Below are positions 4,921 to 31,451 of a DNA stretch of 64,000 bases, one piece after another. Within the stretch, counting starts at the first letter, position 1. Every line of letters begins with the position of its first letter. The translations under genes were made by a program, and so were the position numbers. This DNA is from Winogradskyella sp. 3972H.M.0a.05. GTDB taxonomy: Bacteria; Bacteroidota; Bacteroidia; Flavobacteriales; Flavobacteriaceae. The DNA lies in NCBI RefSeq assembly GCF_040493455.1, contig NZ_JANFDA010000001.1, positions 483,283 through 547,282 of the forward strand. Reading direction: 5' to 3'. The notes below the pieces were generated by a model. It searched no databases, was not told where the DNA came from, and worked only from the letters and a program-made list of their open reading frames with translations.

Positions 4921-5664
4921 CTATATAACTTTGGAAATTTGATGCTGAAACGCAAAGAATGCACGTTTAGAAGCCTTTTCTTCTGCCTTCTTTTTTGAAG
5001 TTGCTCTGGCTTTGGCAACAACTCTATCGTTAATAGAAAGTTTTACCGAAAAGTGTTTTAGGTCATCATTACCAGTGTCTTCGTAGACGTTATAATTGAA
5101 TGTGTTTTTTTCTTTTTGACACCATTCAATGAGTAAGCTTTTATAGCTTATCACTTTACCTTCGAGCTTTTCTATATCTACGTGAGGATTGATAACTCTA
5201 TCAAAGATGAACTTTTCACAACTTTTATAACCCTTATCTAAAAAAATAGCACCAACCAAAGCTTCAAAAAGGTTACCGTGAATATTATTTCCAAAATTCT
5301 GAATAGGGATATTGGATTCTACATGATCAATCAAATTGAGCTCTTTTCCCAATTCATTGAGGTGCTCTCTACTGACCACTTTAGAACGCATTTTGGTGAG
5401 ATACCCTTCGTCGCCATGAGGAACTTCCTCAAAAAGATAAGACGCTATTACTGCGCTAAGCATAGCATCTCCTACAAACTCTAAACGCTCGTAGTTGAGC
5501 GCGTTACCCATTTTGTCCTTTATATTCATCGAACGGTGAGTAAACGCTTTTACATAGAGGTCTTTATGCTTTGGTTTGAAGCCAAGAATCTTTTCGAGAT
5601 GTAAAAAAAAATTCCCGTCTTTAGTAGAACGGGAATTTTTCAATATGTTACGAATGAATCTCAT
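4921..5664 (-). CDS. rnc: ribonuclease III
   Basis: ERLEFVGDA catalytic motif; C-terminal dsRBD-like K-rich tail. Confidence 0.9.
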   Translation of the reverse strand: MRFIRNILKNSRSTKDGNFFLHLEKILGFKPKHKDLYVKAFTHRSMNIKDKMGNALNYERLEFVGDAMLSAVIASYLFEEVPHGDEGYLTKMRSKVVSREHLNELGKELNLIDHVESNIPIQNFGNNIHGNLFEALVGAIFLDKGYKSCEKFIFDRVINPHVDIEKLEGKVISYKSLLIEWCQKEKNTFNYNVYEDTGNDDLKHFSVKLSINDRVVAKARATSKKKAEEKASKRAFFAFQHQISKVI

Positions 5665-5671
5665 TCGGGGT

Positions 5672-6922
5672 CTAGTCTATTTTCTTGAATAACACACAAG
5701 CATTGTGTCCGCCAAAACCAAATGTATTACTCATAGCAACTTTAACGTCTCGTTTTTGTGCCTTGTTTAATGTTAAGTTCAACTCAGGATCTATATTTTC
5801 ATCAACTGTAGAGTGGTTTATTGTTGGAGGCACGATACCATGCTCAATACTTAAGATTGATGCAATGGCTTCAATAGCTCCAGCAGCACCCAACAAGTGA
5901 CCCGTCATAGACTTAGTCGAATTAATATTAATAGTCTTAGCATGATCGCCAAAGACTTCTGTAATTGCTTTCAATTCTGCTACATCACCTAGTGGTGTTG
6001 AGGTACCATGAGTATTGATATGATCAACATCTTCAGGTTTCATGTTAGCATTTTCTAAACAATTACGCATTACAGCCATAACGCCAATACCTTCAGGGTG
6101 AGGAGCCGTCATATGATGTGCGTCAGAAGATAAACCTCCACCAACGACTTCAGCATATATTTTTGCACCTCTAGCTTTAGCATGCTCATACTCTTCAAGA
6201 ATAATAGCACCAGCACCTTCACCAAGTACGAAACCATCTCTGGTTGCGTCAAATGGTCTTGAAGCCGACTCAGGGCTCTCATTTCTTGTAGATAAGGCAT
6301 GCATGGCATTAAATCCACCCATTCCAGCTATAGTTACAGCAGCTTCACTTCCACCTGTAACTACTACATCACAATGTCCTAAACGAATATAGTTTAGCGC
6401 ATCGATCATAGCATTGGCAGAAGAAGCACAAGCTGATACTGTAGTATAGTTTGGTCCCATAAATCCATTTTTAATGGAAATATTACCAGGAGCAATATCA
6501 GCAATCATTTTTGGGATAAAGAAAGGATTAAACTTAGGAGTTCCGTCTCCTTCAGCAAAGTTTAGTACCTCTTCTTGAAAGGTCTCTAAACCTCCAATTC
6601 CTGCACCCCAAATAACACCGACTCTAAGCTTATTTACCTCATCTAGGTTAAGATTAGCATCAGCAATAGCTTCATCTGAAGCAACCATTGCATATTGCGT
6701 AAACTTATCCATTCGACGAGACTCTTTTCTATGAATAAAGTCGGCGACATTAAAGTTTTTTACTTCGCAAGCGAATTTGGTTTTGAACTTTTCAGTGTCA
6801 AAATAAGTAATAGGTGCAGCACCGCTCTTACCATTAACAAGACCATTCCAATAATCGTCTTTGGTATTCCCGATTGGCGTCAAAGCACCTAAACCAGTTA
6901 CTACAACTCGCCTTAATTCCAT
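5672..6922 (-). CDS. fabF: 3-oxoacyl-ACP synthase II
   Basis: VVTGLG N-terminus; active-site Cys region (SACASS); HxxH...GH motifs; 416 aa. Confidence 0.9.
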   Translation of the reverse strand: MELRRVVVTGLGALTPIGNTKDDYWNGLVNGKSGAAPITYFDTEKFKTKFACEVKNFNVADFIHRKESRRMDKFTQYAMVASDEAIADANLNLDEVNKLRVGVIWGAGIGGLETFQEEVLNFAEGDGTPKFNPFFIPKMIADIAPGNISIKNGFMGPNYTTVSACASSANAMIDALNYIRLGHCDVVVTGGSEAAVTIAGMGGFNAMHALSTRNESPESASRPFDATRDGFVLGEGAGAIILEEYEHAKARGAKIYAEVVGGGLSSDAHHMTAPHPEGIGVMAVMRNCLENANMKPEDVDHINTHGTSTPLGDVAELKAITEVFGDHAKTININSTKSMTGHLLGAAGAIEAIASILSIEHGIVPPTINHSTVDENIDPELNLTLNKAQKRDVKVAMSNTFGFGGHNACVLFKKID

Positions 6923-6934
6923 AAAAAATGTGAC

Positions 6935-7168
6935 TTATTTTGCGTCTTCTATATAAGAAATAGCTTGACCTACTGTTGCAATGTTTTCAGCTTGATCATC
7001 TGGAATCTGGATATCGAACTCTTTTTCGAACTCCATGATCAATTCCACTGTATCCAAAGAATCTGCTCCTAAATCATTAGTGAAGCTTGCTTCGGTTACG
7101 ACTTCGTTTTCATCAACACCTAATTTATCAACGATAATCGCTTTTACTCTTGATGCAATGTCTGACAT
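6935..7168 (-). CDS. acpP: acyl carrier protein
   Basis: [14 protein letters not shown] phosphopantetheine-attachment motif; 77 aa. Confidence 0.92.
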
Positions 7169-7358
7169 AATCTTTTAATTTTTAAGTTTTAATTAGGTGG
7201 CAAAAATAAAAAACTTTATTGTAATAAACACCTTTGCGTACAAATTGTGCCTATAATTTACTAAAAATATAGATTCAACAATTTTTTATTTTACCGTCTA
7301 ATTGTAAATTATTATTCTTTTTTTTGTTTTCGAACTTTCGTAGCACTGATATCTAAAC

Positions 7359-7928
7359 ATGAAACGTATTGTAATTTTTGCTTCCGGTTCCGGAACTAAT
7401 GCTGAAAATCTGATTCGGTTTTTTCAAGAAAGAGATGACGCTACAGTGTCCGCTGTGTTGACTAACAATCCTCATGCCAAAGTTTTAGATCGATGTAAAA
7501 AACTAAAAGTCAGCGGGTTGTCATTCAATAGAACAGCGTTTACAGGCACTCATGATGTGCTAAATATCCTGAAAAGTATTCAACCCGATTTGATAGTATT
7601 AGCTGGATTTCTATGGAAATTCCCTGAAACTATGCTAAACGAATTTCCAAATAAGGTTATTAATATTCACCCAGCCCTGTTACCTAAGTACGGCGGAAAA
7701 GGGATGTATGGGAAGTATGTTCATGAAGCTGTTGTTGCTAATAAAGAAGCCGAAACAGGAATAACAATACACTACGTTAATGAACATTATGACGAAGGGG
7801 CGATTATTTTTCAGGCAAAATGCTCAGTAAATACTTCTGATACAGCTGAAGATGTAGCTGCTAAAATTCATGAGCTAGAAATGGAACACTTTCCGAAAGT
7901 AATGGCGAAGTTGTTAGGTGAGCAATAG
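7359..7928 (+). CDS. purN: phosphoribosylglycinamide formyltransferase
   Basis: IVIFASGSGTN N-terminus and INIHPALLP motif. Confidence 0.85.
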   Translation: MKRIVIFASGSGTNAENLIRFFQERDDATVSAVLTNNPHAKVLDRCKKLKVSGLSFNRTAFTGTHDVLNILKSIQPDLIVLAGFLWKFPETMLNEFPNKVINIHPALLPKYGGKGMYGKYVHEAVVANKEAETGITIHYVNEHYDEGAIIFQAKCSVNTSDTAEDVAAKIHELEMEHFPKVMAKLLGEQ

Positions 7929-8033
7929 TTCTCGATACTTCACTTCGAGCATTATTGACTTGTTTAAGAATGTATCGAGAAGTAGTTTAAAATCAATAAT
8001 GATATGTGCTTGAATTAGGTTCAAGATTATAAA

Positions 8034-8675
8034 ATGAGTAAAAAGAAGAAGAAATTCTATACCGTTTGGAAAGGACACCATACAGGAGTCTTTGAAACTT
8101 GGGAAGATTGTAAGGCACAAATCACAAATTTTGAAGGTGCTCAATATAAATCCTTTACTACGTTTGAAGCTGCTAAGAAAGCGCTGAAAGGAAATTATAA
8201 AGATTATATTGGAAAAAGTAAAGTCTTCAAAAGTGAACTCACTGAAGAACAACTTAAGAAAATTGGAAAGCCAAACTTTAACTCAATTAGTGTTGACGCA
8301 GCATCTTCTGGAAATCCTGGTAAGATGGAATACAGAGGTGTAGATACCAAAACCAAAAAACAAATATTTATTCAAGGCCCATTTGAAGAGGCTACAAATA
8401 ATATAGGTGAATTTTTAGCCATAGTACATGCTTTAGCATTGTTAAAGCAAAAGGATAGTGACCGAATTATCTATACTGACTCCAGAACCGCTATGAGTTG
8501 GGTGAAAAAGAAAACCTGCAATACCAAACTTGAACGTAACAATAAGAATAAACCAGTTTTCGACCTTGTAGATCGTGCTATTAATTGGCTAAACAACAAT
8601 ACGTATAGGACTGTTATCGTAAAATGGGAAACCAAAGCTTGGGGAGAAATCCCAGCTGACTTTGGAAGGAAGTAA
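8034..8675 (+). CDS. rnhA: ribonuclease HI with N-terminal hybrid-binding (viroplasmin-like) domain
   Basis: KFYTVWKGHHTGVF...FEAAKKAL HBD motif followed by an RNase H fold with a D/E/D catalytic pattern. Confidence 0.8.
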   Translation: MSKKKKKFYTVWKGHHTGVFETWEDCKAQITNFEGAQYKSFTTFEAAKKALKGNYKDYIGKSKVFKSELTEEQLKKIGKPNFNSISVDAASSGNPGKMEYRGVDTKTKKQIFIQGPFEEATNNIGEFLAIVHALALLKQKDSDRIIYTDSRTAMSWVKKKTCNTKLERNNKNKPVFDLVDRAINWLNNNTYRTVIVKWETKAWGEIPADFGRK

Positions 8676-8677
8676 AG

Positions 8678-9286
8678 TTAATTACGCCACTTTACCCAAA
8701 CAATCATCGAAACATTATTCACGTCACCATTACCATCATCGATAATTCTACCGTTAATAAAATCTCCGGCCGAAAAATCTATATTCAAAGAACTATTCGT
8801 ATACTCAGAAGCTGAAGTTGTTACCGTAGTTGCTGAATTTGTAGTATTTCCATTTCTTACCTGGATAGAAAACTCTTTAGATTGAGCACCATTGTTAGAA
8901 TTCGACTTTACGGAAACATAAGTTATAGTACCATCAAAAGGCATTAAATAACCAGAACGGTTATTGTTTTGATTACCAACAGTTCTTAAATTGGTGTCAT
9001 CAGCTCCTCCTGACCTCCCAAGCTGTAAAGGTGTAACCTCTACACTAAGCCATTTGCTACGAGTAGCATCATACATAAAAAGCTTGTCGCCAATAACAGC
9101 AATTTGCCCTGTAGTATTTCCAGTAGGAGAAGATTGAGGATTTAATTCAAGAGCAGGAATGCCAGTATCAGTAGTTTCAATTTCTAATTCGGCAGTAGGA
9201 TCAGTGGTACCTACACCAACTTGGGCAGATACGGAATAACATGTAAAAAATAACAGAAAAAAATAAATAGCCAGAAGGTCTTTCAT
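8678..9286 (-). CDS. hypothetical secreted protein
   Basis: Signal peptide (FFLLFFTCYSVSAQ); T/N/S-rich; no known motifs. Confidence 0.45.
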   Translation of the reverse strand: MKDLLAIYFFLLFFTCYSVSAQVGVGTTDPTAELEIETTDTGIPALELNPQSSPTGNTTGQIAVIGDKLFMYDATRSKWLSVEVTPLQLGRSGGADDTNLRTVGNQNNNRSGYLMPFDGTITYVSVKSNSNNGAQSKEFSIQVRNGNTTNSATTVTTSASEYTNSSLNIDFSAGDFINGRIIDDGNGDVNNVSMIVWVKWRN

Positions 9287-9423
9287 GATATAACAGATTT
9301 AGGGTTATACTATGATTAGAATGGCTATTACAGCAAAAGTACTAAAAATAAGCTTCAACTAAAAACAAGCTTTTGTACAGAATAAATTTTGAGTAAATTT
9401 GCACTTCATTTCAAAACGCTTTT

Positions 9424-10350
9424 ATGAGCAAATTAGTGATTGTCGGAACTGTAGCTTTCGACGCTATCGAAACACCTTTTGGTAAAACAGATAAGATTCT
9501 TGGAGGGGCAGCAACATTTATAGGTTTAGCAGCATCACAGTTTAAGGTAGATTCATCAATAGTATCTATTGTAGGTGGTGACTTCCCACAGGAATACTTA
9601 GACTTGCTTTCCGACAGAAACATTGACATTACTGGAGTAGAAATCGTTAAAGATGGAAAAACGTTTTTCTGGAGTGGGTTGTATCATAATGATATGAATT
9701 CGCGCGATACTTTGGTTACAGAGTTAAATGTATTAGCAGATTTTGAACCAGTGGTTCCAGAAGCCTACAGAGATGCAGAAATTGTAATGTTAGGAAATTT
9801 ACATCCACTAACGCAGCTTAGCGTTATTGAGCAAATGACCACTAAACCAAAAGCAATCATTTTGGACACCATGAACTTTTGGATGGATAATGCTTTGGAA
9901 GACTTGCACAAGGTTATGAAGCATATCGATGTGATTACAATCAATGATGAAGAAGCAAGACAGCTAACAGGAGAGTATTCACTTGTTGTAGCGGCCAGAA
10001 AGATTCATGAAATGGGGCCACAATATGTGGTTATTAAGAAAGGTGAACATGGTGCTTTACTATTTCACAAGGATAATGCATTCTATGCACCAGCATTACC
10101 TCTAGAAGAAGTTTTTGATCCAACAGGAGCAGGAGATACTTTTGCAGGAGGTTTTGCAGGATATTTAGCAAGAACAGGAGATACTTCTTTTGAAAATATG
10201 AAGAACGCAGTAATCTACGGTTCAACCTTGGCATCGTTCTGTGTTGAAAAATTTGGAACACAACGAATGGAGACACTCAAGGCCGATGAGGTACGCAAAC
10301 GTCTCCAGCAATTTAAGAATCTAACACAATTTGAAATAAAATTAACGTAA
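9424..10350 (+). CDS. PfkB-family carbohydrate kinase
   Basis: GGAATF near N-terminus and DPTGAGDTFAGG C-terminal ribokinase-family motif. Confidence 0.75.
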   Translation: MSKLVIVGTVAFDAIETPFGKTDKILGGAATFIGLAASQFKVDSSIVSIVGGDFPQEYLDLLSDRNIDITGVEIVKDGKTFFWSGLYHNDMNSRDTLVTELNVLADFEPVVPEAYRDAEIVMLGNLHPLTQLSVIEQMTTKPKAIILDTMNFWMDNALEDLHKVMKHIDVITINDEEARQLTGEYSLVVAARKIHEMGPQYVVIKKGEHGALLFHKDNAFYAPALPLEEVFDPTGAGDTFAGGFAGYLARTGDTSFENMKNAVIYGSTLASFCVEKFGTQRMETLKADEVRKRLQQFKNLTQFEIKLT

Positions 10351-26728: not shown

Positions 26729-27362
26729 GGGAAAAATTAAATTTGGATTTCTAAAAAAAATAATAGCATATTTGTACCACAAATGATAAAAACAATAGTA
26801 CATAGAGCACCGATTTCGCTGAATTGCAAGCGAGATTACCAAGGAATGAGTGAATTATTCGCTTGGGAGAGGACGCTATGTGACTATTTTTAATCGTTTT
26901 TTGAGAATGAATTAAACCAAAAACTGAATATAGTTACAAGCGTCCAAGAAATTGGGCGCTTTTTTTATGAAAAAAATTGATAATATTTTGAAGATAAGTT
27001 TTAACATCTAAATAAAGGCACTTGAAAAGTAAGCAATTGGGAGACAGACTATTGCCAAATTACTTGAGAATCTGCGACTAAGCGGACAGGGATTCCTATG
27101 CTTGAAATTAAACATAATTAGTTGATAATCAATAAATTAAATTAAAATTTTTCTTGTGTAATTAAAATTTTCATTTCATATTTGCACCATCAAAAATTGA
27201 TAACAAAACAAGACGTGATAAAATATTTACAACATATGCCCCATACTCAATATGAGTTTTGCTCGCCGAAAATTTTTGGCGCAGTGAATAGTGAAGCCGA
27301 TTTAAAAATAACCGAAAGGGAGAAAAATAAATGTATATCAGTATAGGCATATATGATATATA

Positions 27363-27436: not shown

Positions 27437-27509
27437 TGACGTATAGCTTAGTCGGTAGAGCAGGGTGCTTTTAACACCAAGGTCGTGAGTTCGAATCTCG
27501 CTGCGTCAA
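27437..27509 (+). tRNA. tRNA-Lys (anticodon TTT)
   Basis: Manual cloverleaf: acceptor tgacgta/tgcgtca (U1:A72), D-arm gctt-agtcggtag-agc, anticodon loop cttttaa, T-arm cgtgagttcgaatctcgc. Confidence 0.8.
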
Positions 27510-27515
27510 CAAATT

Positions 27516-27588
27516 GGGGATATAGTTTACCAAGCCAAAACAGTGGGTTTGCAACTCGCAGTACGGAGTGTAAGTCTCCGTGTCTCCA
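27516..27588 (+). tRNA. degenerate tRNA-like gene (anticodon-position TGC, Ala-like); probable pseudogene
   Basis: Cloverleaf can be drawn (acceptor ggggata/tgtctcc, loop tttgcaa). The D-loop lacks GG, the T-loop is tgtaagt, and the anticodon stem has two G-U pairs. Confidence 0.4.
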
Positions 27589-27593
27589 CAAAA

Positions 27594-27665
27594 GATATTG
27601 TAGCTCAATGGTAGAGCAGGCGGCTGTTAACCGCCAGGTTGAAAGTTCGAGTCTTTCCAATATCG
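27594..27665 (+). tRNA. tRNA-Asn (GTT)
   Basis: Acceptor gatattg/caatatc, anticodon arm ggcgg-ctgttaa-ccgcc, T-arm ggttgaaagttcgagtcttt. Confidence 0.85.
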
Positions 27666-27668
27666 CTA

Positions 27669-27742
27669 GACAAGGTGGCTGAATGGTTAAAGCGGCAGTC
27701 TGCAAAACTGTTTTTTTATGAGTTCAAATCTCATCCTTGTCT
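27669..27742 (+). tRNA. tRNA-Cys (GCA)
   Basis: Acceptor gacaagg/ccttgtc, loop ctgcaaa, T-arm atgagttcaaatctcat. Unusual T6 run in the variable region. Confidence 0.75.
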
Positions 27743-27754
27743 CAAAAAAAATTA

Positions 27755-27897
27755 GGGAATGCGTCCAAGTTGGAGAGTGGAGCCAGTCTGACTAGAGCTT
27801 GCGACTGAGCGAAACCGATTTAAAACAATAGAAATGATTGAGTTAAAAACTGGTGCTTCGGTTGAATAGGTTCGAAATGCAGAGCATTCATGAGCAC
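27755..27897 (+). other. non-canonical tRNA-like gene A: type-II-like 5' part with an approximately 55-nt anticodon-loop insertion and the derived 3' module
   Basis: Acceptor-like gggaatg; D-stem tcc/gga with a 12-nt GG-containing loop. Anticodon stem ccagt (27783) pairs with actgg (27849) across 62 nt. The 3' end is aggttcgaaatgcagagcattcatgagcac. Confidence 0.4.
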
Positions 27898-27949
27898 AGC
27901 GATTCAAAAACTAAAATCAAGCGAACTAATCCTATGATTCCCACAACAA

Positions 27950-28021
27950 GCATCTATAGTGTAATTGGCAACATAGTAGATTTCCAATCTACAGTTTCGA
28001 GTTCGAGTCTCGGTAGGTGCT
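27950..28021 (+). tRNA. tRNA-Gly (TCC)
   Basis: Acceptor gcatcta/taggtgc, loop tttccaa, T-arm tcgagttcgagtctcgg. Confidence 0.85.
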
Positions 28022-28031
28022 CATAATACAC

Positions 28032-28103
28032 GCGCTTATGGTGTAATGGCTAGCATCTGAGTCTCCAAAACTTAGGGTTGAGGTTCAAGTCCTTATGGGC
28101 GCG
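28032..28103 (+). tRNA. tRNA-Trp (CCA)
   Basis: Acceptor gcgctta/tgggcgc, D-arm gtgt-aatggcta-gcat, loop ctccaaa, T-arm tgaggttcaagtcctta. Confidence 0.85.
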
Positions 28104-28110
28104 CAAATTA

Positions 28111-28240
28111 TATCTATGGTGTAATTGGATAGCACAAGAGATTTAGCTCACAGACTAATTATTATAAAATGTGGAGTTCCTGAATGCTTCGCATTTCTAA
28201 TCTCTAAGTCCGAGTTCGAAATGCTTTGCATTCATGAGTT
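28111..28240 (+). other. non-canonical tRNA-like gene B: tRNA 5' part with a 52-nt anticodon-loop insertion (possible mature loop tttctaa, Arg-TCT) and the derived 3' module
   Basis: D-arm gtgt-aattggata-gcac as in Trp/Gln. Anticodon stem agaga (28137) pairs with tctct (28201) across 59 nt. The 3' end is gagttcgaaatgctttgcattcatgagttc. Confidence 0.4.
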
Positions 28241-28292
28241 CTTATTTATCAAAATAATAATATGACGAACTAACCTTGGTAGATATACATCT

Positions 28293-28364
28293 GGTTCATT
28301 GGGGTAATGGATATCCTTCCCGACTGTCTCTCGGGAGATACGAGTTCGATTCTCGTATGAACCG
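28293..28364 (+). tRNA. tRNA-Asp (GTC)
   Basis: Acceptor ggttcat/atgaacc, loop ctgtctc, T-arm acgagttcgattctcgt. Confidence 0.85.
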
Positions 28365-28369
28365 CAACT

Positions 28370-28451
28370 GTGCTCTGTTACCATAAGATATGGTGCTGGG
28401 TTCTAAAAAGGGAAGTATAAGGGGCCATTTTCTTTACAGAGCACATTTTTT
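28370..28451 (+). terminator. terminator-like structured element: perfect 9-bp stem enclosing a 57-nt substructured loop, followed by a T6 run
   Basis: gtgctctgt...acagagcac then attttttaag. An internal hairpin ccata-aga-tatgg is present. Confidence 0.45.
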
Positions 28452-28466
28452 AAGAGATTATTCAAT

Positions 28467-28548
28467 GGAAGGGCAATTGGTGGTGGCCACAGTCTTGAAA
28501 ACTGTTCGGAGCTAACGACTCGTGTGGGTTCAACTCCCACCTCTTCCG
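28467..28548 (+). tRNA. tRNA-Ser (TGA), class II with variable arm
   Basis: Acceptor ggaaggg/ctcttcc, anticodon arm acagt-cttgaaa-actgt, variable arm about 18 nt, T-arm gtgggttcaactcccac. The D-arm is poorly defined. Confidence 0.65.
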
Positions 28549-28801
28549 CTACATGGAGGGTAGGCAAATACTGGTTCGTTGCGCTCGTTTGCTAAACAAG
28601 TCCGTGAGAAATCCGGTGAAGGTTCAAATGCGAAGCATTCACGAATACCTATTTATTGAATAAGTATTTAATGAGTAACTCCTTTATCCTCCGCAAATCT
28701 GGGAATAGAACAATTGGCTGTTTACTCGCTTTGGATGCGAGAGGTTGTAGAGCCTGTGCCGAACTAGATTCGGTATTCGAGTCCTACTTCTCAGACGAAA
28801 T

Positions 28802-28928
28802 GCTCCATTAGCATAGTGGTTTAGTGCATTCGGCTTTAACTCACTGACGCATATTTAGGAAATTGGTTTCGTTGAATTCGCAAACTCATTTCTACCGAAA
28901 GACAAGGGTTCGATTCCCTTATGGAGTA
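28802..28928 (+). tRNA. tRNA-like gene with a 54-nt insertion in the anticodon loop (mature loop could be ctttcta for Glu-TTC, or ctttaa-a for anticodon TTA)
   Basis: Acceptor gctccat/atggagt, D-arm gca-tagtggtttag-tgc. Anticodon stem ttcgg (28829) pairs with ccgaa (28895) across 61 nt. Normal T-arm aagggttcgattccctt. Confidence 0.5.
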
Positions 28929-28935
28929 CAAATTT

Positions 28936-29007
28936 TGAGGCATAGCTCAGTGGTAGAGCGTCACGCTTACATCGTGATTGTCATAGGTTCGATCCCTATT
29001 GCCTCAA
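28936..29007 (+). tRNA. tRNA-Val (TAC)
   Basis: Acceptor tgaggca/tgcctca (U1:A72), D-arm gctc-agtggtag-agcg, loop cttacat, T-arm ataggttcgatccctat. Confidence 0.85.
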
Positions 29008-29012
29008 CATAA

Positions 29013-29085
29013 TGAGATATAGCTTAACTGGTAGAGCGCCGCTCTGATAAGGTGGTAGGTTTAGGTTCAACTCCTAATATCTCAA
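29013..29085 (+). tRNA. tRNA-Ile (GAT)
   Basis: Acceptor tgagata/tatctca, loop ctgataa, T-arm ttaggttcaactcctaa. Confidence 0.85.
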
Positions 29086-29095
29086 CTAATAATAA

Positions 29096-29168
29096 TGAGA
29101 TGTAGCTTAATTGGTAGAGCATCGCTCTCATAAGGCGAAACGTCTAGGTTCGAGTCCTAGCATCTCAA
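29096..29168 (+). tRNA. tRNA with CAT anticodon (elongator Met or lysidine-Ile2; not initiator-like)
   Basis: Acceptor tgagatg/catctca, loop ctcataa. The anticodon stem lacks the 3 G-C pairs of an initiator. The body closely resembles the adjacent tRNA-Ile. Confidence 0.8.
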
Positions 29169-29174
29169 CAATTT

Positions 29175-29249
29175 ACAGGAATGGCGAAAATGGCAAACGC
29201 ACTCGACTTAGACTCGAGGTATCTGAGAGTTCGAATCTCTCTTCCTGTA
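29175..29249 (+). tRNA. class-I-shaped tRNA with Leu anticodon TAG (no long variable arm)
   Basis: Acceptor acaggaa/ttcctgt, D-arm gcg-aaaatggcaaa-cgc, perfect anticodon arm ctcga-cttagac-tcgag. Only 6 nt lie between the anticodon stem and the T-arm gagagttcgaatctctc. A73 is present. Confidence 0.6.
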
Positions 29250-29253
29250 CTAT

Positions 29254-29327
29254 GCTCCACTAGCCCAAATGGCAGAGGCATCAGTCTTAAACACTGAGTA
29301 GTCCAAGTTCGAATCTTGGGTGGAGTT
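29254..29327 (+). tRNA. class-I-shaped tRNA with Leu anticodon TAA (no long variable arm; U73)
   Basis: Acceptor gctccac/gtggagt, anticodon arm tcagt-cttaaac-actga, 5-nt variable loop, T-arm ccaagttcgaatcttgg. Confidence 0.6.
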
Positions 29328-29333
29328 CAACAA

Positions 29334-29410
29334 GCTCATGGTGTAATGGATAGCATTCAAGGCTACGGACTTTGAGGTATGGGTTCGAAATGCAAAGCAT
29401 TCACGAGCTC
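29334..29410 (+). other. non-canonical tRNA-like gene D: tRNA-Arg(ACG)-like body whose T-arm is replaced by the derived 3' module
   Basis: Acceptor gctcatg pairs with cacgagc. D-arm gtgt-aatggata-gcat, anticodon arm caagg-ctacgga-ctttg, then aggtatgggttcgaaatgcaaagcattcacgagctc. Confidence 0.45.
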
Positions 29411-29459
29411 AAATTTATCAAAATGATTATGAGGCGAGCTAGTCCTATTGAGCTTACAA

Positions 29460-29531
29460 TAACCTGTAGTGTAATGGTTAGCATTCAAGACTTTGACTCT
29501 TGAGGTAAAGGTTCAAATCCTTTCAGGTTAT
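29460..29531 (+). tRNA. tRNA-Gln (TTG)
   Basis: Acceptor taacctg/caggtta, D-arm gtgt-aatggtta-gcat, loop ctttgac, T-arm aaaggttcaaatccttt. Confidence 0.85.
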
Positions 29532-29533
29532 CT

Positions 29534-29606
29534 GGTGTCTATAGTGTAACGGCTCGCACGAGAGATTGTGGTACTCTAAGATTAGGTTCGACTCCTAATA
29601 GACACC
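29534..29606 (+). tRNA. tRNA-His (GTG) with encoded G-1 paired to C73
   Basis: G-1 then gtgtcta pairs with tagacac then C73. Loop ttgtggt, T-arm ttaggttcgactcctaa. Confidence 0.8.
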
Positions 29607-29612
29607 CAAAAT

Positions 29613-29685
29613 GGAGCAGTAGCAAAGTTGGTCAATGCAGCAGATTGAAGTTCTGACGATATAGGTTCGATTCCTGTCTGTTCCA
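29613..29685 (+). tRNA. tRNA-Phe (GAA)
   Basis: Acceptor ggagcag/ctgttcc, loop ttgaagt, T-arm ataggttcgattcctgt, A73. Confidence 0.8.
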
Positions 29686-29689
29686 CAAA

Positions 29690-30256
29690 TTTTCATGAAT
29701 TTTTAATTACGCAAAATCATTGCGTAATAGAAATTCACCTTTGTATCAACATTTACCGATAAAGGTAGAATTACGTTCATTGAAATTAAATGAAGTCAAA
29801 GTACTTCATTATAGAAAGAAATCGTCATTAGAAATAATGACGGGGCGGCTTATCGTCCTTAGATAAACTTGGCAACAAGGATAAATCTGCTTGCAGGCAC
29901 TGCGAGTGGAGACTGTTTTCTCTAGAGATCAGTACAGGTAAGCAAGCAACTAACATAAATCATAAAAAGCTAGGGGCAACCGCTGAAGCAAATTAGGATT
30001 TATAGCCAATATTTTTGGAGGCTTGAGGTGGAGACACCAACAGGAAAAGTTGTAGTAATAGGTTACGTATAGGTCATCCAACCTTATGGAGCGTGTTGCA
30101 GTATTAGAGGTACCCGACAAGAAATTGTTCGGTAGCTCAACATACCGTGTGCTGGGAGGCACACAAAGAGAAGGTTGGTATTTTGTAGGCCAAAATCTAC
30201 GGAGCCATTTCCGAAGCCCTTCTCTTAGGCCAGACGATAGTCTATCTCCAACAAAA
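29690..30256 (+). ncRNA. ORF-free structured RNA candidate (hairpin-dense, locally GC-enriched); identity unknown
   Basis: No ORF above about 115 aa and none with a plausible start or composition. Multiple perfect hairpins (ttacgcaa-aatc-attgcgtaa; cgtcatta-gaaa-taatgacg with a GNRA loop; gtag-gccaaaat-ctac; ccgacaag-aaatt-gttcgg). GC is well above the flanking sequence. Confidence 0.35.
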
Positions 30257-30831
30257 TGGGGATATAGCTCAAGTTTAGAGCATTGTATTTTTAACACAAA
30301 GGTTGACTTTATATCTTAAATGCAAAAGACTTCGGACATTACAGCAGCTAGTAGTTGCCTAAACCTATTGAAACATATAGGATGGTAGAGGTCGCAAACC
30401 TATACCATGTGGTGAACATTCTAGTAGGCCGCCTCAAGAGAGGACGCCTATGAATGGTGGGGGAGCCAACCCTCGTAATTGCAAAGCGTGGCCGTAGAGC
30501 CTCTATGCAAGCCAAGTCTAAGTCGCCGAACAGCTGTAATGTAATTAGGCATCGGACAAGTACGTGATTCCCTAAGCGATGGGAAGAGCGTGGAAAACCA
30601 AGGAAGGGCTACGGCTATAATCTTGGGAAAGTTTGTCTACAAGCGGAGGTATTCTCAGCACGCTTTTTTTAAAAATATCAAGCTGGTCTTGTTGCGTGTT
30701 TCTGTATAGCACCATTGTATAGAAGATTGCAGGGATGTATTATGCTTCTATATGCAACTAGACTTGAAGGTTTGGGTTTATCCAAAAAACTCCACCAAAG
30801 TTCAGTGTGGGTTCGAATCCCACTATCTCTA
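30257..30831 (+). other. split tRNA-like gene: intact 5' half (acceptor, D-arm, anticodon arm with loop tttttaa) separated by about 500 nt of structured sequence from a T-arm plus acceptor 3' half; either an intron-containing tRNA or two pseudogene fragments
   Basis: 5' half ggggatatagctcaagtttagagcattgtatttttaacacaa at 30257-30299. 3' half gtgggttcgaatcccac-tatctct-a at 30807-30831. The acceptor halves pair with 2 G-U. The intervening sequence is ORF-free and hairpin-rich, with an internal T7 run at about 30675. Confidence 0.35.
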
Positions 30832-30833
30832 AC

Positions 30834-30941
30834 GGGATATGGCGGAATGGTAGACGCACTAGATTTGAGGTCTAGCGGACAGATGACATTCTCAAAAAAT
30901 GTCTCTTTTAATGTTGCCGGTTCGACTCCGGTCATAAGCTC
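30834..30941 (+). other. degenerate Ser-like (TGA) tRNA-like sequence with an approximately 42-nt variable region
   Basis: D-arm gcg-gaatggtaga-cgc, perfect anticodon arm ctaga-tttgagg-tctag, T-arm ccggttcgactccgg. The acceptor pairs poorly. Confidence 0.35.
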
Positions 30942-30957
30942 GAGAGTAATCTCGCTG

Positions 30958-31025
30958 GCTTTTGTAACTCAATGGTAGAGTACTACGCTGTTAACGTAGC
31001 AGGTCATTATAGACCACTAAAGCCG
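30958..31025 (+). other. degenerate second Asn-like (GTT) tRNA-like sequence with an aberrant T-arm
   Basis: Acceptor ggctttt/taaagcc (6 bp), anticodon arm ctacg-ctgttaa-cgtag. T-arm reduced to ggtc-attata-gacc. Confidence 0.35.
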
Positions 31026-31451
31026 ACCATCTTTTAAAACTGGTCTCACAGCCTGTCACGCTGAAAAAATTGACAAAAAGTGTTGGTTGCCAATTGGCCT
31101 ATTGTATAATACTATTAGTGTTCAATAAAAGGCAATCTCAACATTACCTTGACCTGTTGATTTGTATTGCTCTAAGCAATGACTTTTAGCAGAACGATTA
31201 GATGACATTTTAGAACACCTACTTGTTCTAAAACAACTCTTAGAGAGCTGCGAAAAACTTATTGTAGCAAGCAATACTATGAATAGGTCCGTAATGAAGT
31301 GATGATTGGTAATCGCACTTTTTTAAAGAGAAATAAATTTTTAAAGATAAACTCAGATGCTAAAGTTACTTGTGCTTTAGCATTAGAGCAGGCATAGCCT
31401 CCGTTACAGGAATTGCCGCAAATTAATGTTTAATCATAAAAACTAAGAACA

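What the first reader, a model, noticed from the sequence alone, without database searches (positions are those of the whole stretch)
29690..30831. About 1.1 kb of ORF-free, GC-enriched, hairpin-dense sequence inside the tRNA array, bracketed by a tRNA 5' half and a tRNA 3' half
- This is the only long stretch in the window without a credible ORF. The 115-aa and 77-aa track ORFs overlap on opposite strands and have no start context or sensible composition.
- GC is much higher than in the AT-rich intergenic regions, and the sequence is full of perfect hairpins, several with GNRA or GAAA loops.
- A tRNA 5' half at 30257-30299 (acceptor ggggata, D-arm, anticodon arm with loop tttttaa) has its matching T-arm/acceptor (gtgggttcgaatcccac-tatctct) 500 nt downstream at 30807-30831. 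That is the geometry of an intron-containing tRNA.
- Segments resembling the P7-forming R/S elements of group I introns are present: gactt near 30320 with aagtc near 30520, and ggagactg near 29918 with gatagtctatc near 30240.
- Alternatively, the 570-nt upstream part (29690-30256) could be an independent large ncRNA of the kind known to sit beside tRNAs (GOLLD/ROOL-like).
Basis: partly seen in the sequence, partly recalled or inferred. Interest (0 to 1): 0.8.

Follow-up and report, generated by a model that had tools for sequence, protein, structure and literature searches.

The report
GOLLD RNA gene in tRNA array
The ORF-free stretch is a gene for GOLLD, a known giant bacterial RNA that assembles into hollow cages, sitting at the end of a chromosomal tRNA gene array of a flavobacterium; it is not a tRNA interrupted by an intron.

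Summary
Window 29823-30664 (+) is a GOLLD RNA gene. Rfam's GOLLD model matches 30166-30664 end to end (130.4 bits, E=1e-35, below the curated 150). The 326 nt upstream form a separate structured domain: 92 pairs, 43 with compensatory changes across 20 homologues.

The element is a clean presence/absence block between tRNA-Phe and a conserved ~160-nt element. It occurs in 17 of 80 syntenic Flavobacteriaceae loci.

It lies in the GOLLD linker and is the relic of a tRNA-like module. In relatives this module reads T-arm, acceptor 3' strand, (A)CCA, acceptor 5' strand, D-arm, anticodon arm. That is the circularly permuted, YrlA-like order. Its partner strand lies 9 nt upstream (30243-30249). The window copy has lost the T-arm.

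The "3' half" (30807-30830) belongs to the separate 160-nt element, found in 78 of 80 loci with or without GOLLD. It pairs with the strand just downstream of it. Distal pairing is not conserved (3.6/7).

The intron reading is rejected; the GOLLD-like alternative is right in kind but wrong in extent. A published GOLLD alignment already holds a sequence of this type. The downstream chain of closed-acceptor tRNA-like modules is the more unusual by-product.

The parts
29775..29786 (+). Conserved motif GTTCATTGAAAT about 50-65 nt upstream of the GOLLD body. It may be a promoter or a processing signal; its role is unknown.
   Evidence: Present at the same place in nearly all GOLLD-bearing loci. It recurs in front of the 160-nt element in L057, L059, L061, L066, L067 and L092.
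29789..29810 (+). Hairpin AATGAAGT-CAAAGT-ACTTCATT in the GOLLD leader.
   Evidence: Read from the sequence. Homologues have a hairpin of different sequence at the same place.
29823..29842 (+). Hairpin 'P0' (CGTCATT-AGAAAT-AATGACG) abutting the first GOLLD helix. It is the likely 5' end of the structured RNA.
   Evidence: Covaries in homologues: CGTCATC/GATGACG in L024, CGTCATTT/AAATGACG in L061, CATCA/TGATG in L002. The terminator scan picked it up as a stem on the opposite strand.
29840..30165 (+). GOLLD 5' domain: 14 helices, several with GNRA loops.
   Evidence: RNAalifold on 20 homologues gives 92 pairs, 97.2% of cells paired, and 43 pairs with changes on both sides. Shuffles give 22.3+-2.6 (0 of 500 reach the observed value) and slid controls give 4-16. 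The first 50 nt resemble the 5' end of GOLLD env-38: a hairpin with loop GCUUAU, AGAUAAA, a GNRA hairpin, GGAUAAA.
30166..30664 (+). GOLLD conserved 3' domain (Rfam RF02032, model positions 1-416).
   Evidence: cmscan gives 130.4 bits and E=1.1e-35 over the full model; the gathering score is 150. The homologue in L009 gives 138.6 bits and E=9.6e-38.
30166..30227 (+). First helix of the 3' domain (model positions 1-62; P14 in the cryo-EM numbering). The linker follows it.
   Evidence: Alignment to the model. An 18-nt core, AGAAGGTTGGTATTTTGT, is invariant in 18 sequences.
30228..30327 (+). Variable linker, expected to be the cage-interior loop. It carries the relic of a permuted tRNA-like module.
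   Evidence: Corresponds to the unpaired stretch of the Rfam model. Kretsch 2025 (PMC12286853) reports that the env-38 linker is disordered inside the cage and that linkers sometimes hold tRNAs.
30243..30249 (+). Acceptor 3' strand TATCTCC of the linker module. The T-arm that precedes it in relatives is deleted here.
   Evidence: Homologues read CTAGG-TTCGATT-CCTAG then TATCTAA-A-CCA at this place. The window has a gap of about 16 nt there.
30258..30264 (+). Acceptor 5' strand GGGGATA.
   Evidence: Forms 7 of 7 pairs with 30243-30249. Across 16 homologues the own-partner mean is 5.19 of 7, against 3.60 for cross-sequence partners; 1 of 10000 shuffles reaches the observed value.
30267..30281 (+). 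D-arm GCTC-AAGTTTA-GAGC. Its loop has lost the GG found in relatives (AATTGGTA).
30283..30299 (+). Anticodon-like arm TTGTA-TTTTTAA-CACAA.
   Evidence: tRNA model, 28.3 bits. The loop sequence is not conserved among homologues, and the arm is absent in L018, L021, L024, L059, L061, L066 and L067.
30337..30345 (+). 5' strand of the long-range GOLLD pseudoknot (CATTACAGC).
   Evidence: Bracketed as a pseudoknot in the Rfam model. It pairs with 30533-30541 and covaries: CATTGTAGC/GCTACAATG in L009, CACTGTAAT/GTTACAGTG in L006.
30533..30541 (+). 3' strand of the pseudoknot (GCTGTAATG).
30664..30670 (+). Run of 7 T after the last GOLLD hairpin; the likely 3' end. It is only weakly terminator-like.
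   Evidence: A T-run of 4-9 follows the element in most homologues. The terminator scan did not call it.
30672..30806 (+). Not part of GOLLD. This is the structured 5' part of a separate element conserved across the family. It has a long-range stem enclosing two hairpins, followed by another hairpin.
   Evidence: Present in 78 of 80 syntenic loci. Across 47 sequences it has 40 pairs, 24 with changes on both sides.
30807..30839 (+). Not part of GOLLD. T-arm GTGGG-TTCGAAT-CCCAC (30807-30823), strand TATCTCT (30824-30830), loop AA, complementary strand CGGGATA (30833-30839).
   Evidence: Across 78 loci the own-partner mean is 6.28 of 7, against 3.63 for cross-sequence partners. There are 43 distinct words and 0 of 5000 shuffles reach the observed value. 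Adjacent canonical tRNAs give 3.04 of 7.

Best explanation
Window ~29823-30664 (+ strand) encodes a GOLLD RNA. It lies at the 3' end of a chromosomal tRNA gene array in a Flavobacteriaceae genome, near Winogradskyella.

Shown here:
- It has the family's two-domain build: a lineage-specific, covariation-supported 5' domain (29840-30165) and the conserved 3' domain (30166-30664), including the long-range pseudoknot.
- A variable linker (30228-30327) follows the first helix of the 3' domain.
- In this flavobacterial lineage the linker holds a tRNA-like module in circularly permuted order: T-arm, acceptor stem closed by a loop that often reads ACCA, D-arm, anticodon-like arm.
- The window copy has lost the T-arm and the D-loop GG, so only a relic remains.

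Inferred from published GOLLD structures, not tested here:
- The RNA is transcribed with or just after the tRNAs.
- It folds without protein and self-assembles into a multimeric hollow cage.
- The linker, with its tRNA-like relic, faces the interior of the cage.

The cellular role of GOLLD is unknown for the whole family. My best guess is that the cage sequesters or presents tRNA-shaped RNA, or factors that bind tRNA, in step with expression of the tRNA array.
For: - Rfam GOLLD matches end to end at E=1.1e-35. The L009 homologue matches at E=9.6e-38.
- The pseudoknot strands are complementary and covary.
- The 5' domain has 92 pairs, 43 with compensatory changes; 0 of 500 shuffles reach this.
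- The folding z-score is -6.3.
- The 5'-terminal motifs and the 3'-terminal GGUAUUCUCAG match GOLLD env-38.
- 17 of 80 syntenic loci and 8 metagenome contigs carry homologues at 74-83% identity. Identity roughly tracks host divergence, being lowest in the loci with the most divergent SPFH protein.
- The element is a clean indel relative to L001.
- The overlapping ORFs are not conserved.
- The literature reports GOLLD in tRNA arrays, tRNAs or pseudo-tRNAs in its linker, and nanocage assembly: PMC12286853, PMC6582537, PMC12990946.
- The published GOLLD alignment contains ABHI01000002.1 with the same linker sequence.
Against: - The score (130.4 bits) is below Rfam's gathering cut-off of 150, for the window and for L009 alike.
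- One model hairpin (positions ~303-318) is missing and another region (~233-270) is replaced.
- There are no expression data, and no promoter or terminator was recognised.
- Homology of the 5' domain to published P1-P13 is shown only for its first ~50 nt. Global alignment to env-38 is uninformative, at 44% identity.
- Oligomerisation is untested for this lineage.
- There is no phage context, unlike many GOLLDs.
- Loss of the T-arm in the window shows that at least the linker module is decaying in this genome.
Confidence: 0.93

Rival explanations
1. Split or intron-containing tRNA. The 5' half at 30257-30299 and the T-arm/acceptor at 30807-30831 would be exons of one tRNA, separated by a ~500-nt self-splicing, group-I-like intron.
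For: GGGGATA and TATCTCT can form 7 pairs, 2 of them G-U. The sequence between them is highly structured.
Against: - No intron family matches at E<=10.
- The intervening sequence is the GOLLD 3' domain.
- The break would lie at the variable-loop/T-arm junction.
- The 3' piece exists in 78 of 80 loci, most of which have no GOLLD and no 5' piece. It has its own covarying partner just downstream.
- Distal pairing averages 3.6 of 7 in 14 GOLLD loci, against 5.6 of 7 for the local upstream strand.
- Relatives have a T-arm of their own upstream of the 5' half.
Confidence: 0.01
2. Inactive GOLLD relic. The window copy would be a decaying pseudogene left after the lineage stopped using GOLLD, as suggested by the patchy distribution (17 of 80 loci) and the deleted T-arm.
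For: - It is absent from the closest relative, L001.
- The window has lost the linker T-arm and the D-loop GG and carries an extra ~20-nt insert after the anticodon-like arm.
Against: - Outside the linker, the window copy keeps all 14 helices of the 5' domain and the full 3'-domain model, including the pseudoknot.
- Changes relative to homologues are largely compensatory.
- The linker is the part of GOLLD known to be variable and disordered.
Confidence: 0.05
3. Two-piece GOLLD. In relatives with an intact module and a 7-bp closed acceptor stem, RNase P would cut in the acceptor loop and the 3' strand would be trimmed to CCA. GOLLD would then function as two RNAs held together by the tRNA-like domain. 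This would parallel two-piece tmRNA and M. smegmatis YrlA.
For: - The acceptor stems are 7 bp long, and the loop begins ACCA or ACC in several homologues.
- M. smegmatis YrlA, which has a 7-bp closed acceptor stem, is cut by RNase P and receives CCA in vivo (PMC4201824).
- Weak hits to the YrlA and permuted-tmRNA models fall on these modules.
Against: - There are no end-mapping data.
- Pairing in the GOLLD linker module is imperfect (mean 5.2 of 7), and the module is degenerate or partly deleted in many loci.
- The window copy lacks the T-arm that RNase P recognition relies on.
Confidence: 0.12
4. Protein-coding region, using the 115-aa or 77-aa ORF.
For: Both ORFs are open in the window.
Against: - The 115-aa frame carries 3-12 stops in all 17 homologues.
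- The 77-aa frame is open in only 2 of 17.
- The substitution pattern is that of base-paired RNA.
Confidence: 0.01

Closest known systems
GOLLD RNA (Rfam RF02032; Weinberg et al. 2009; cryo-EM of env-38 in Kretsch et al. 2025, PMC12286853)
   Same: - A full-length match to the 3'-domain model, including the pseudoknot.
- A separate, structured, more variable 5' domain.
- A total size of ~0.83-0.85 kb (env-38 is 833 nt).
- A variable linker after the first 3'-domain helix.
- A location next to tRNA genes.
- The shared terminal motif GGUAUUCUCAG.
   Different: - It scores below the Rfam gathering cut-off, lacks one model hairpin and has one region replaced.
- It is chromosomal and syntenic across a bacterial family, with no phage genes nearby.
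- The linker module is in permuted order.
Mycobacterium/Mycolicibacterium GOLLD inside tRNA arrays, with an embedded tRNA or pseudo-tRNA (PMC6582537; Morgado 2020 as cited in PMC12990946)
   Same: GOLLD lies inside a large tRNA gene cluster and has a tRNA-like sequence in its linker, which is apparently not expressed as a separate tRNA.
   Different: - There the embedded tRNA is in normal order. Rows AP024266.1 and QMEV01000001.1 of the published alignment read D-arm, anticodon arm, T-arm.
- Here the order is T-arm, closed acceptor, D-arm.
- Those arrays are regarded as horizontally acquired. This one is syntenic in 80 Flavobacteriaceae genomes.
YrlA (bacterial Y RNA-like) tRNA-mimic domain (Chen et al. 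2014, PMC4201824; Wang et al. 2018, bioRxiv 10.1101/312249)
   Same: - The same order of elements: variable arm, T stem-loop, closed acceptor-like stem-loop, D stem-loop. It is described as resembling a circularly permuted tRNA, possibly derived from a dimeric tRNA precursor.
- The conserved T-loop, D-loop GG and U8/A9 are present.
- The Rfam YrlA model gives weak hits on these modules.
   Different: - There is no Ro60/TROVE gene within ~10 kb on either side and no Ro-binding helix.
- Scores are far below the YrlA cut-off (24-32 bits against 69).
- The modules are embedded in GOLLD or chained in tandem, rather than forming a ~110-nt stand-alone RNA.
ROOL RNA
   Same: A large ornate RNA found near tRNAs and in phages that forms a nanocage with an interior linker.
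   Different: No ROOL match in the window at gathering score or at E<=10 in 29300-31200. Its sequence and fold are unrelated.
Permuted (two-piece) tmRNA genes and permuted tRNA genes of Cyanidioschyzon
   Same: The T-arm and acceptor 3' strand (with CCA) are encoded upstream of the acceptor 5' strand. There is a weak tmRNA_permuted hit in L009.
   Different: There is no tag reading frame, ARAGORN calls no tmRNA, and bacteria have no known BHB splicing machinery. Processing is unknown here.

Membership tests
GOLLD RNA (RF02032) | Match to the covariance model of the conserved 3' domain at or above the curated gathering score (150 bits). | tested here: inconclusive
   130.4 bits, E=1.1e-35, model positions 1-416 all covered. 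L009 gives 138.6 bits. This is overwhelming for homology but below the curators' cut-off. A sequence of this flavobacterial type (ABHI01000002.1) is included in the GOLLD alignment of Kretsch 2025.
GOLLD RNA (RF02032) | Long-range pseudoknot of the 3' domain. | tested here: met
   CATTACAGC (30337-30345) pairs with GCTGTAATG (30533-30541). Compensatory changes are seen in L009 and L006.
GOLLD RNA (RF02032) | Two-domain build: a conserved 3' domain plus a less conserved, structured 5' domain, ~800 nt in all. | tested here: met
   The 5' domain (29840-30165) has 14 helices and 43 covarying pairs. Total length is 842 nt (29823-30664). Its first motifs resemble the env-38 5' end. Helix-by-helix correspondence to P1-P13 was not established.
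GOLLD RNA (RF02032) | Variable linker after the first 3'-domain helix, sometimes holding a tRNA. | tested here: met
   The linker is 30228-30327 and varies from 58 to 111 nt among the homologues. It holds a tRNA-like module.
GOLLD RNA (RF02032) | Genomic association with tRNA clusters and/or phages. | tested here: met
   It lies immediately after tRNA-Phe, the last of the 14 tRNA genes that ARAGORN calls in the array; Rfam adds three more tRNA matches in the array region. No phage association was found.
GOLLD RNA (RF02032) | Protein-free assembly into a closed homo-oligomeric cage. | not testable with these tools
   Needs in-vitro transcription plus mass photometry or cryo-EM.
Intron-containing tRNA / group I intron | Match to a group I (or II) intron model; conserved P3-P8 core. 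| tested here: not met
   No intron family appears among the 15 hits at E<=10 in 29300-31200.
Intron-containing tRNA / group I intron | Exon halves that form one tRNA, conserved in homologues. | tested here: not met
   Distal acceptor pairing averages 3.6 of 7 over 14 loci. The 3' piece is present in loci that lack the 5' piece.
YrlA-type tRNA mimic (for the linker module and the downstream modules) | Order T stem-loop, closed acceptor-like stem-loop, D stem-loop, with tRNA-like T-loop and D-loop. | tested here: met
   Own-partner pairing is 6.28 of 7 (n=78), 6.13 of 7 (n=62) and 5.19 of 7 (GOLLD linker, n=16), against ~3.6 for cross-sequence partners. Adjacent canonical tRNAs give 3.04 of 7. 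In the window's GOLLD copy the T-arm is missing.
YrlA-type tRNA mimic (for the linker module and the downstream modules) | Ro60-binding helix and a neighbouring rsr (TROVE) gene; Rfam YrlA score of 69 or more. | tested here: not met
   Pfam shows no TROVE domain among the 10 flanking proteins scanned. YrlA scores are 24-32 bits. These are therefore not filed as YrlA; only the topology is shared.

The most novel reading that the evidence does not exclude
Flavobacteriaceae carry, at the end of their tRNA array, a family-wide structured RNA that I did not find described. It consists of a ~135-nt covarying 5' domain followed by two or more tRNA-shaped modules. In each module the acceptor stem forms between the strand after one T-arm and the strand before the next D-arm, so the stem is closed (YrlA-like, circularly permuted topology). 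The GOLLD of this lineage has the same kind of module in its cage-interior linker. If RNase P opens these 7-bp closed acceptor stems, as it does in M. smegmatis YrlA, two things would follow. The downstream transcript would become a non-covalent chain of tRNA-sized pieces, each paired to its neighbours. GOLLD would become a two-piece RNA displaying a CCA end inside the cage.
Probability: 0.25. Interest if true: 0.75.

Novelty: new member of a known kind. Interest (0 to 1): 0.42.

Why it matters
GOLLD is one of the few natural RNAs known to build a protein-free cage larger than a ribosome, and its function is unknown.
- A lineage that is chromosomal, syntenic across a cultivable marine bacterial family and naturally present or absent between close relatives offers a tractable genetic system. 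Most other examples are phage-borne.
- Standard annotation would miss this copy, because it scores below the Rfam cut-off.
- The permuted, closed-acceptor tRNA-like module in the linker bears on the idea that the cage interior holds tRNA-shaped cargo.
- The neighbouring conserved chain of such modules suggests that tRNA mimics independent of Ro60 may be more common than is known.

Tried and rejected
- **Phage origin.** BLASTN (distant mode) of 29690-30831 against 50,697 phage records found nothing.
- **Viral contigs.** Exact-motif scans gave 2 and 117 hits. None was homologous by nhmmer, and the counts fit chance.
- **Other metagenome hits.** 16 further contigs that share the motif (14 metagenome, 2 viral) contain no GOLLD at gathering score.
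- **Global alignment to env-38.** Only 44% identity, uninformative; only the local terminal motifs are comparable.
- **Group I or II intron, RNase P, tmRNA, ROOL, HEARO.** No hits, or only fragmentary T-arm hits.
- **Sigma-70 promoter and intrinsic terminator scans.** No enrichment, and nothing flanks the element. Bacteroidota promoters are not covered by the tool.
- **Ro60/TROVE neighbour** that might explain the YrlA-like modules: none found.
- **Literature not held.** Weinberg 2009 (PMC4140389) and Morgado 2020 (PMC7549688) could not be read. I therefore cannot exclude that the permuted order of the linker tRNA was noted there.
- **Literature searches** for GOLLD with 'permuted', and for tRNA-like elements in flavobacterial tRNA arrays, returned nothing relevant.
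- **The ~205-nt tRNA-like element** seen beside GOLLD in relatives is absent from the window.
Full report
**Observation**

The region is non-coding and strongly structured.
- No ORF of 130 aa or more lies between the PEP carboxylase gene (end 26728) and an SPFH/Band-7 gene (start 31452).
In 17 homologues the 115-aa frame always carries stops (3-12), and the 77-aa frame carries stops in 15 of 17.
- GC is 0.40-0.52, against 0.27-0.33 in nearby spacers.
- The + strand of 29823-30670 folds at -277.5 kcal/mol, against -233.5+-7.0 for shuffles (z=-6.3).
- ARAGORN finds 14 tRNA genes at 27437-29686, all on the + strand.
- At gathering thresholds Rfam reports only tRNAs in the window, and none of them within 29690-30831.

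**Identification**

With E-value reporting, the Rfam GOLLD model (RF02032) matches 30166-30664 (+) over all 416 model positions. The score is 130.4 bits and E=1.1e-35, under the curated cut-off of 150. The same search lists no intron, RNase P, ROOL or HEARO family at E<=10.

A weak tRNA hit (28.3 bits) at 30258-30317 falls inside the unpaired linker of the GOLLD model.

The literature fits this picture.
- GOLLD RNAs exceed 800 nt. They have a conserved 3' region and a variable 5' region, lie near tRNA islands and form a 14-mer cage.
- Their linker is disordered inside the cage and sometimes holds tRNAs (Kretsch 2025, PMC12286853).
- Mycobacterial GOLLDs sit inside tRNA clusters and contain a pseudo-tRNA or tRNA-Phe (PMC6582537; PMC12990946).

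**Comparative data**

The SPFH protein retrieved 80 syntenic loci from Flavobacteriaceae genomes. The best is a Winogradskyella MAG at 89% amino-acid identity. Flanking genes are ordinary chromosomal genes: GNAT, DinB, CHAP, ferritin, PEPcase, Band-7, LolA-like, MMPL and TetR. No phage gene and no TROVE gene is among them.

BLASTN and nhmmer of 29690-30831 against these loci gave two separate results.
- 17 loci carry a homologue of window ~29770-30680 at 74-83% identity, in the same place.
- Nearly all loci (78) carry a homologue of window ~30670-30830, whether or not they have the first block.

In the closest relative (L001), tRNA-Phe is followed within 5 nt by that second element. The GOLLD block (29687-30671) is therefore a clean presence/absence difference.

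GOLLD identity is lowest (74-79%) in the Maribacter-like loci, whose SPFH protein is also the most divergent (74-75%). It is higher (79-83%) in the closer genera. This suggests long residence with repeated loss rather than recent transfer.

Eight more homologues came from metagenome contigs, at least some of them marine. None came from viral contigs or phage genomes.

**Anatomy of the GOLLD gene**

*5' domain.* In an alignment of 20 homologues, the 326 nt upstream of the Rfam match (29840-30165) fold into 14 helices.
- There are 92 pairs, and 97.2% of cells are paired.
- 43 pairs have changes on both sides. Shuffles give 22.3+-2.6 (0 of 500 reach the observed value), and controls with partners slid by 1-3 columns give 4-16.
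- Its start resembles the 5' end of the cryo-EM construct env-38: a hairpin with loop GCUUAU, AGAUAAA, a GNRA hairpin, GGAUAAA (sequence; alignment).

*Leader.* A further covarying hairpin (29823-29842) abuts the first helix. A conserved motif, GTTCATTGAAAT (29775-29786), plus a variable hairpin lies upstream.

*3' domain.* It keeps the long-range pseudoknot (30337-30345 with 30533-30541), which covaries in L009 and L006. It ends in GGUAUUCUCAG...CGCU followed by a run of T (30664-30670). One model hairpin is absent and one region is replaced.

L009 scores 138.6 bits, so the whole lineage sits just under the Rfam cut-off. A sequence of this type (ABHI01000002.1) is nevertheless present in the GOLLD alignment published with the cryo-EM paper.

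**The 'tRNA 5' half'**

In the homologues the linker reads as follows:
- T-arm: CTAGG-TTCGATT-CCTAG.
- A 7-nt strand, for example TATCTAA.
- A, often followed by CCA.
- 2-6 further nucleotides.
- A complementary 7-nt strand, for example TTGGATA.
- TA.
- D-arm: GCTC-AATTGGTA-GAGC.
- An anticodon-like arm.
- The conserved GOLLD sequence GCAAAAGACUUCGG.

This is a tRNA in circularly permuted order, with the acceptor stem closed by a loop.

The two strands covary: TTGGATA/TATCTAA, TCAGGA/TCCTGA, GTTGATA/TATCTAC. Own-partner pairing averages 5.19 of 7, against 3.60 for partners taken from other sequences, and 1 of 10000 shuffles reaches the observed value. Relatedness of the sequences inflates such tests.

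The anticodon loop is not conserved, and the arm is absent from seven of the 17 genome loci and from some metagenome copies. The module is therefore not a decoding tRNA.

In the window the T-arm is deleted and the D-loop has lost its GG. What remains:
- TATCTCC (30243-30249), pairing 7 of 7 with GGGGATA (30258-30264).
- The D-arm.
- An anticodon-like arm.

Other GOLLD lineages in the published alignment have the linker tRNA in normal order. I found no text that remarks on the permuted order. Two key papers could not be read.

**The 'tRNA 3' half'**

The T-arm at 30807-30823 ends a separate, family-wide element.

Its first ~135 nt (30672-30806) form a long-range stem enclosing two hairpins, followed by another hairpin. 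Across 47 sequences there are 40 pairs, 24 with compensatory changes.

After the T-arm comes a 7-nt strand, a loop of 0-24 nt, the complementary strand, TA (TG in the window) and a D-arm. A second T-arm, closed stem, D-arm and anticodon arm then follow.
- Module 1: own-partner pairing is 6.28 of 7 (n=78, 43 distinct words), against 3.63 for cross-sequence partners.
- Module 2: own-partner pairing is 6.13 of 7 (n=62), against 3.81.
- In both, 0 of 5000 shuffles reach the observed value.
- Pairing in normal tRNA order (the strand before the D-arm with the strand after the next T-arm) is only 3.02 of 7.

As a control, 671 canonical tRNAs in the same loci pair 6.89 of 7 with their own 3' strand. 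For 482 adjacent canonical pairs, the 3' strand of one pairs only 3.04 of 7 with the 5' strand of the next. The effect is therefore not the trivial 'dimeric tRNA' artefact that Chen et al. warn about.

In the window, TATCTCT (30824-30830) pairs with CGGGATA (30833-30839).

Across 14 GOLLD loci the distal pairing averages 3.6 of 7, against 5.6 of 7 for the local strand.

**Closest known for the modules**

The order T, closed acceptor, D is that of the YrlA tRNA mimic. YrlA is described as resembling a circularly permuted tRNA and as possibly derived from a dimeric tRNA precursor. M. smegmatis YrlA, which has a 7-bp stem, is cut by RNase P and receives CCA (PMC4201824; bioRxiv 10.1101/312249).

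Rfam's YrlA and permuted-tmRNA models give weak hits on these modules. There is no Ro60 gene nearby and no Ro-binding helix, so I do not file them as YrlA.

**Mechanism**

Shown:
- Homology to GOLLD.
- A two-domain covarying structure.
- The position and make-up of the linker.
- The chromosomal, syntenic and patchy distribution.

Inferred from the family:
- Protein-free assembly into a cage with the linker inside.

Speculative:
- The interior tRNA-shaped module recruits or mimics tRNA ligands, or is opened by RNase P to give a two-piece RNA.

In the window itself the module is a relic, so any such role would rest on the GOLLD body alone.

**Verdict**

This is a real feature of a known family, and the lineage is already present in a published alignment.

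Interest is moderate, for three reasons. The GOLLD copy falls below the annotation threshold in a tractable chromosomal setting. Its linker module is permuted. It has an unexpectedly conserved neighbour made of closed-acceptor tRNA-like modules.

Noticed in passing
window 30672-31035 (and L001-L080 at about 9230-9600): A conserved structured element follows the tRNA array in 78 of 80 Flavobacteriaceae loci. It has a ~135-nt covarying 5' part followed by two tRNA-like modules with closed acceptor stems. In the window, module 1 has T-arm 30807-23, a3' 30824-30, a5' 30833-39, a Leu-like D-arm 30842-57 and an anticodon-like arm 30859-75. Module 2 has T-arm 30906-22, a3' 30923-29, a5' 30948-54, D-arm 30957-71 and an anticodon arm 30973-89. 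No Rfam family reaches threshold over the element as such (within it Rfam calls only a tRNA at 30958-31024), and I found no description in the searched literature.
   Followed up: partly
window 30958-31024: Rfam calls this a tRNA (36.9 bits, truncated T-arm). Its 5' strand GCTTTTG can pair 6 of 7 either with the upstream strand CATAAGC (closed-acceptor reading) or with the downstream CTAAAGC (normal reading). Which pairing forms is unresolved.
   Followed up: partly
window 31003-31053: A block conserved in most loci (consensus CCACCAAAGCTTATCATCTTGTAAAACTGATAG, then a hairpin such as GCAGTC-CGTCACA-CTGC) follows the tRNA-like modules. It may be the 3' end of that RNA, or a leader of the SPFH gene.
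   Followed up: no
window 26739-27188: About 450 nt downstream of the PEP carboxylase gene are conserved at 67-81% identity in nearly all syntenic loci, yet hold no ORF of 60 aa or more that looks conserved. A terminator-like hairpin lies at 26938-26961. There is no Rfam match above threshold.
   Followed up: no
window 27516-27588, 28467-28547, 28802-28928, 29332-29387: Non-canonical tRNA-like genes lie inside the array and ARAGORN does not call them. One tRNA-model hit spans 127 nt, implying an insert of about 55 nt. One is a sub-threshold tRNA-Sec-like hit (38.4 bits against 47). One is a truncated copy (16.7 bits). The gaps in the array (for example 28366-28801) contain blocks conserved in other loci.
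   Followed up: no
L009 8870-9105; also L012, L014, L024, L034 downstream of GOLLD, and L057-L067 and L092 upstream of GOLLD: A ~205-nt element has a perfect 7-bp acceptor stem (ACCTCTT/AAGAGGT), a D-arm and a T-arm, but ~130 nt in place of the anticodon and variable region. It is absent from the window.
   Followed up: no
L009 9761-9830: The Flavo-1 RNA motif matches at 41.8 bits (cut-off 42) just upstream of the SPFH gene. It was not seen at gathering score in the window.
   Followed up: no
window 29775-29786; L057, L059, L061, L066, L067, L092 downstream of GOLLD: The motif GTTCATTGAAA(T) recurs ~50-65 nt upstream of GOLLD. In some loci it also lies just upstream of the 160-nt element. It could be a promoter or a processing signal shared by these RNA genes.
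   Followed up: partly
L001, L002, L009, L061 (arrays at about 5000-9230): Array composition differs between genera, from 6 to 16 tRNAs called. The arrays include oddities such as tRNA-Tyr(ATA) and genes with abnormal anticodon loops. Encoded CCA is rare in canonical array tRNAs (4.9%). It is more frequent at the start of long acceptor loops of the closed modules (5 of 26 and 7 of 17).
   Followed up: partly
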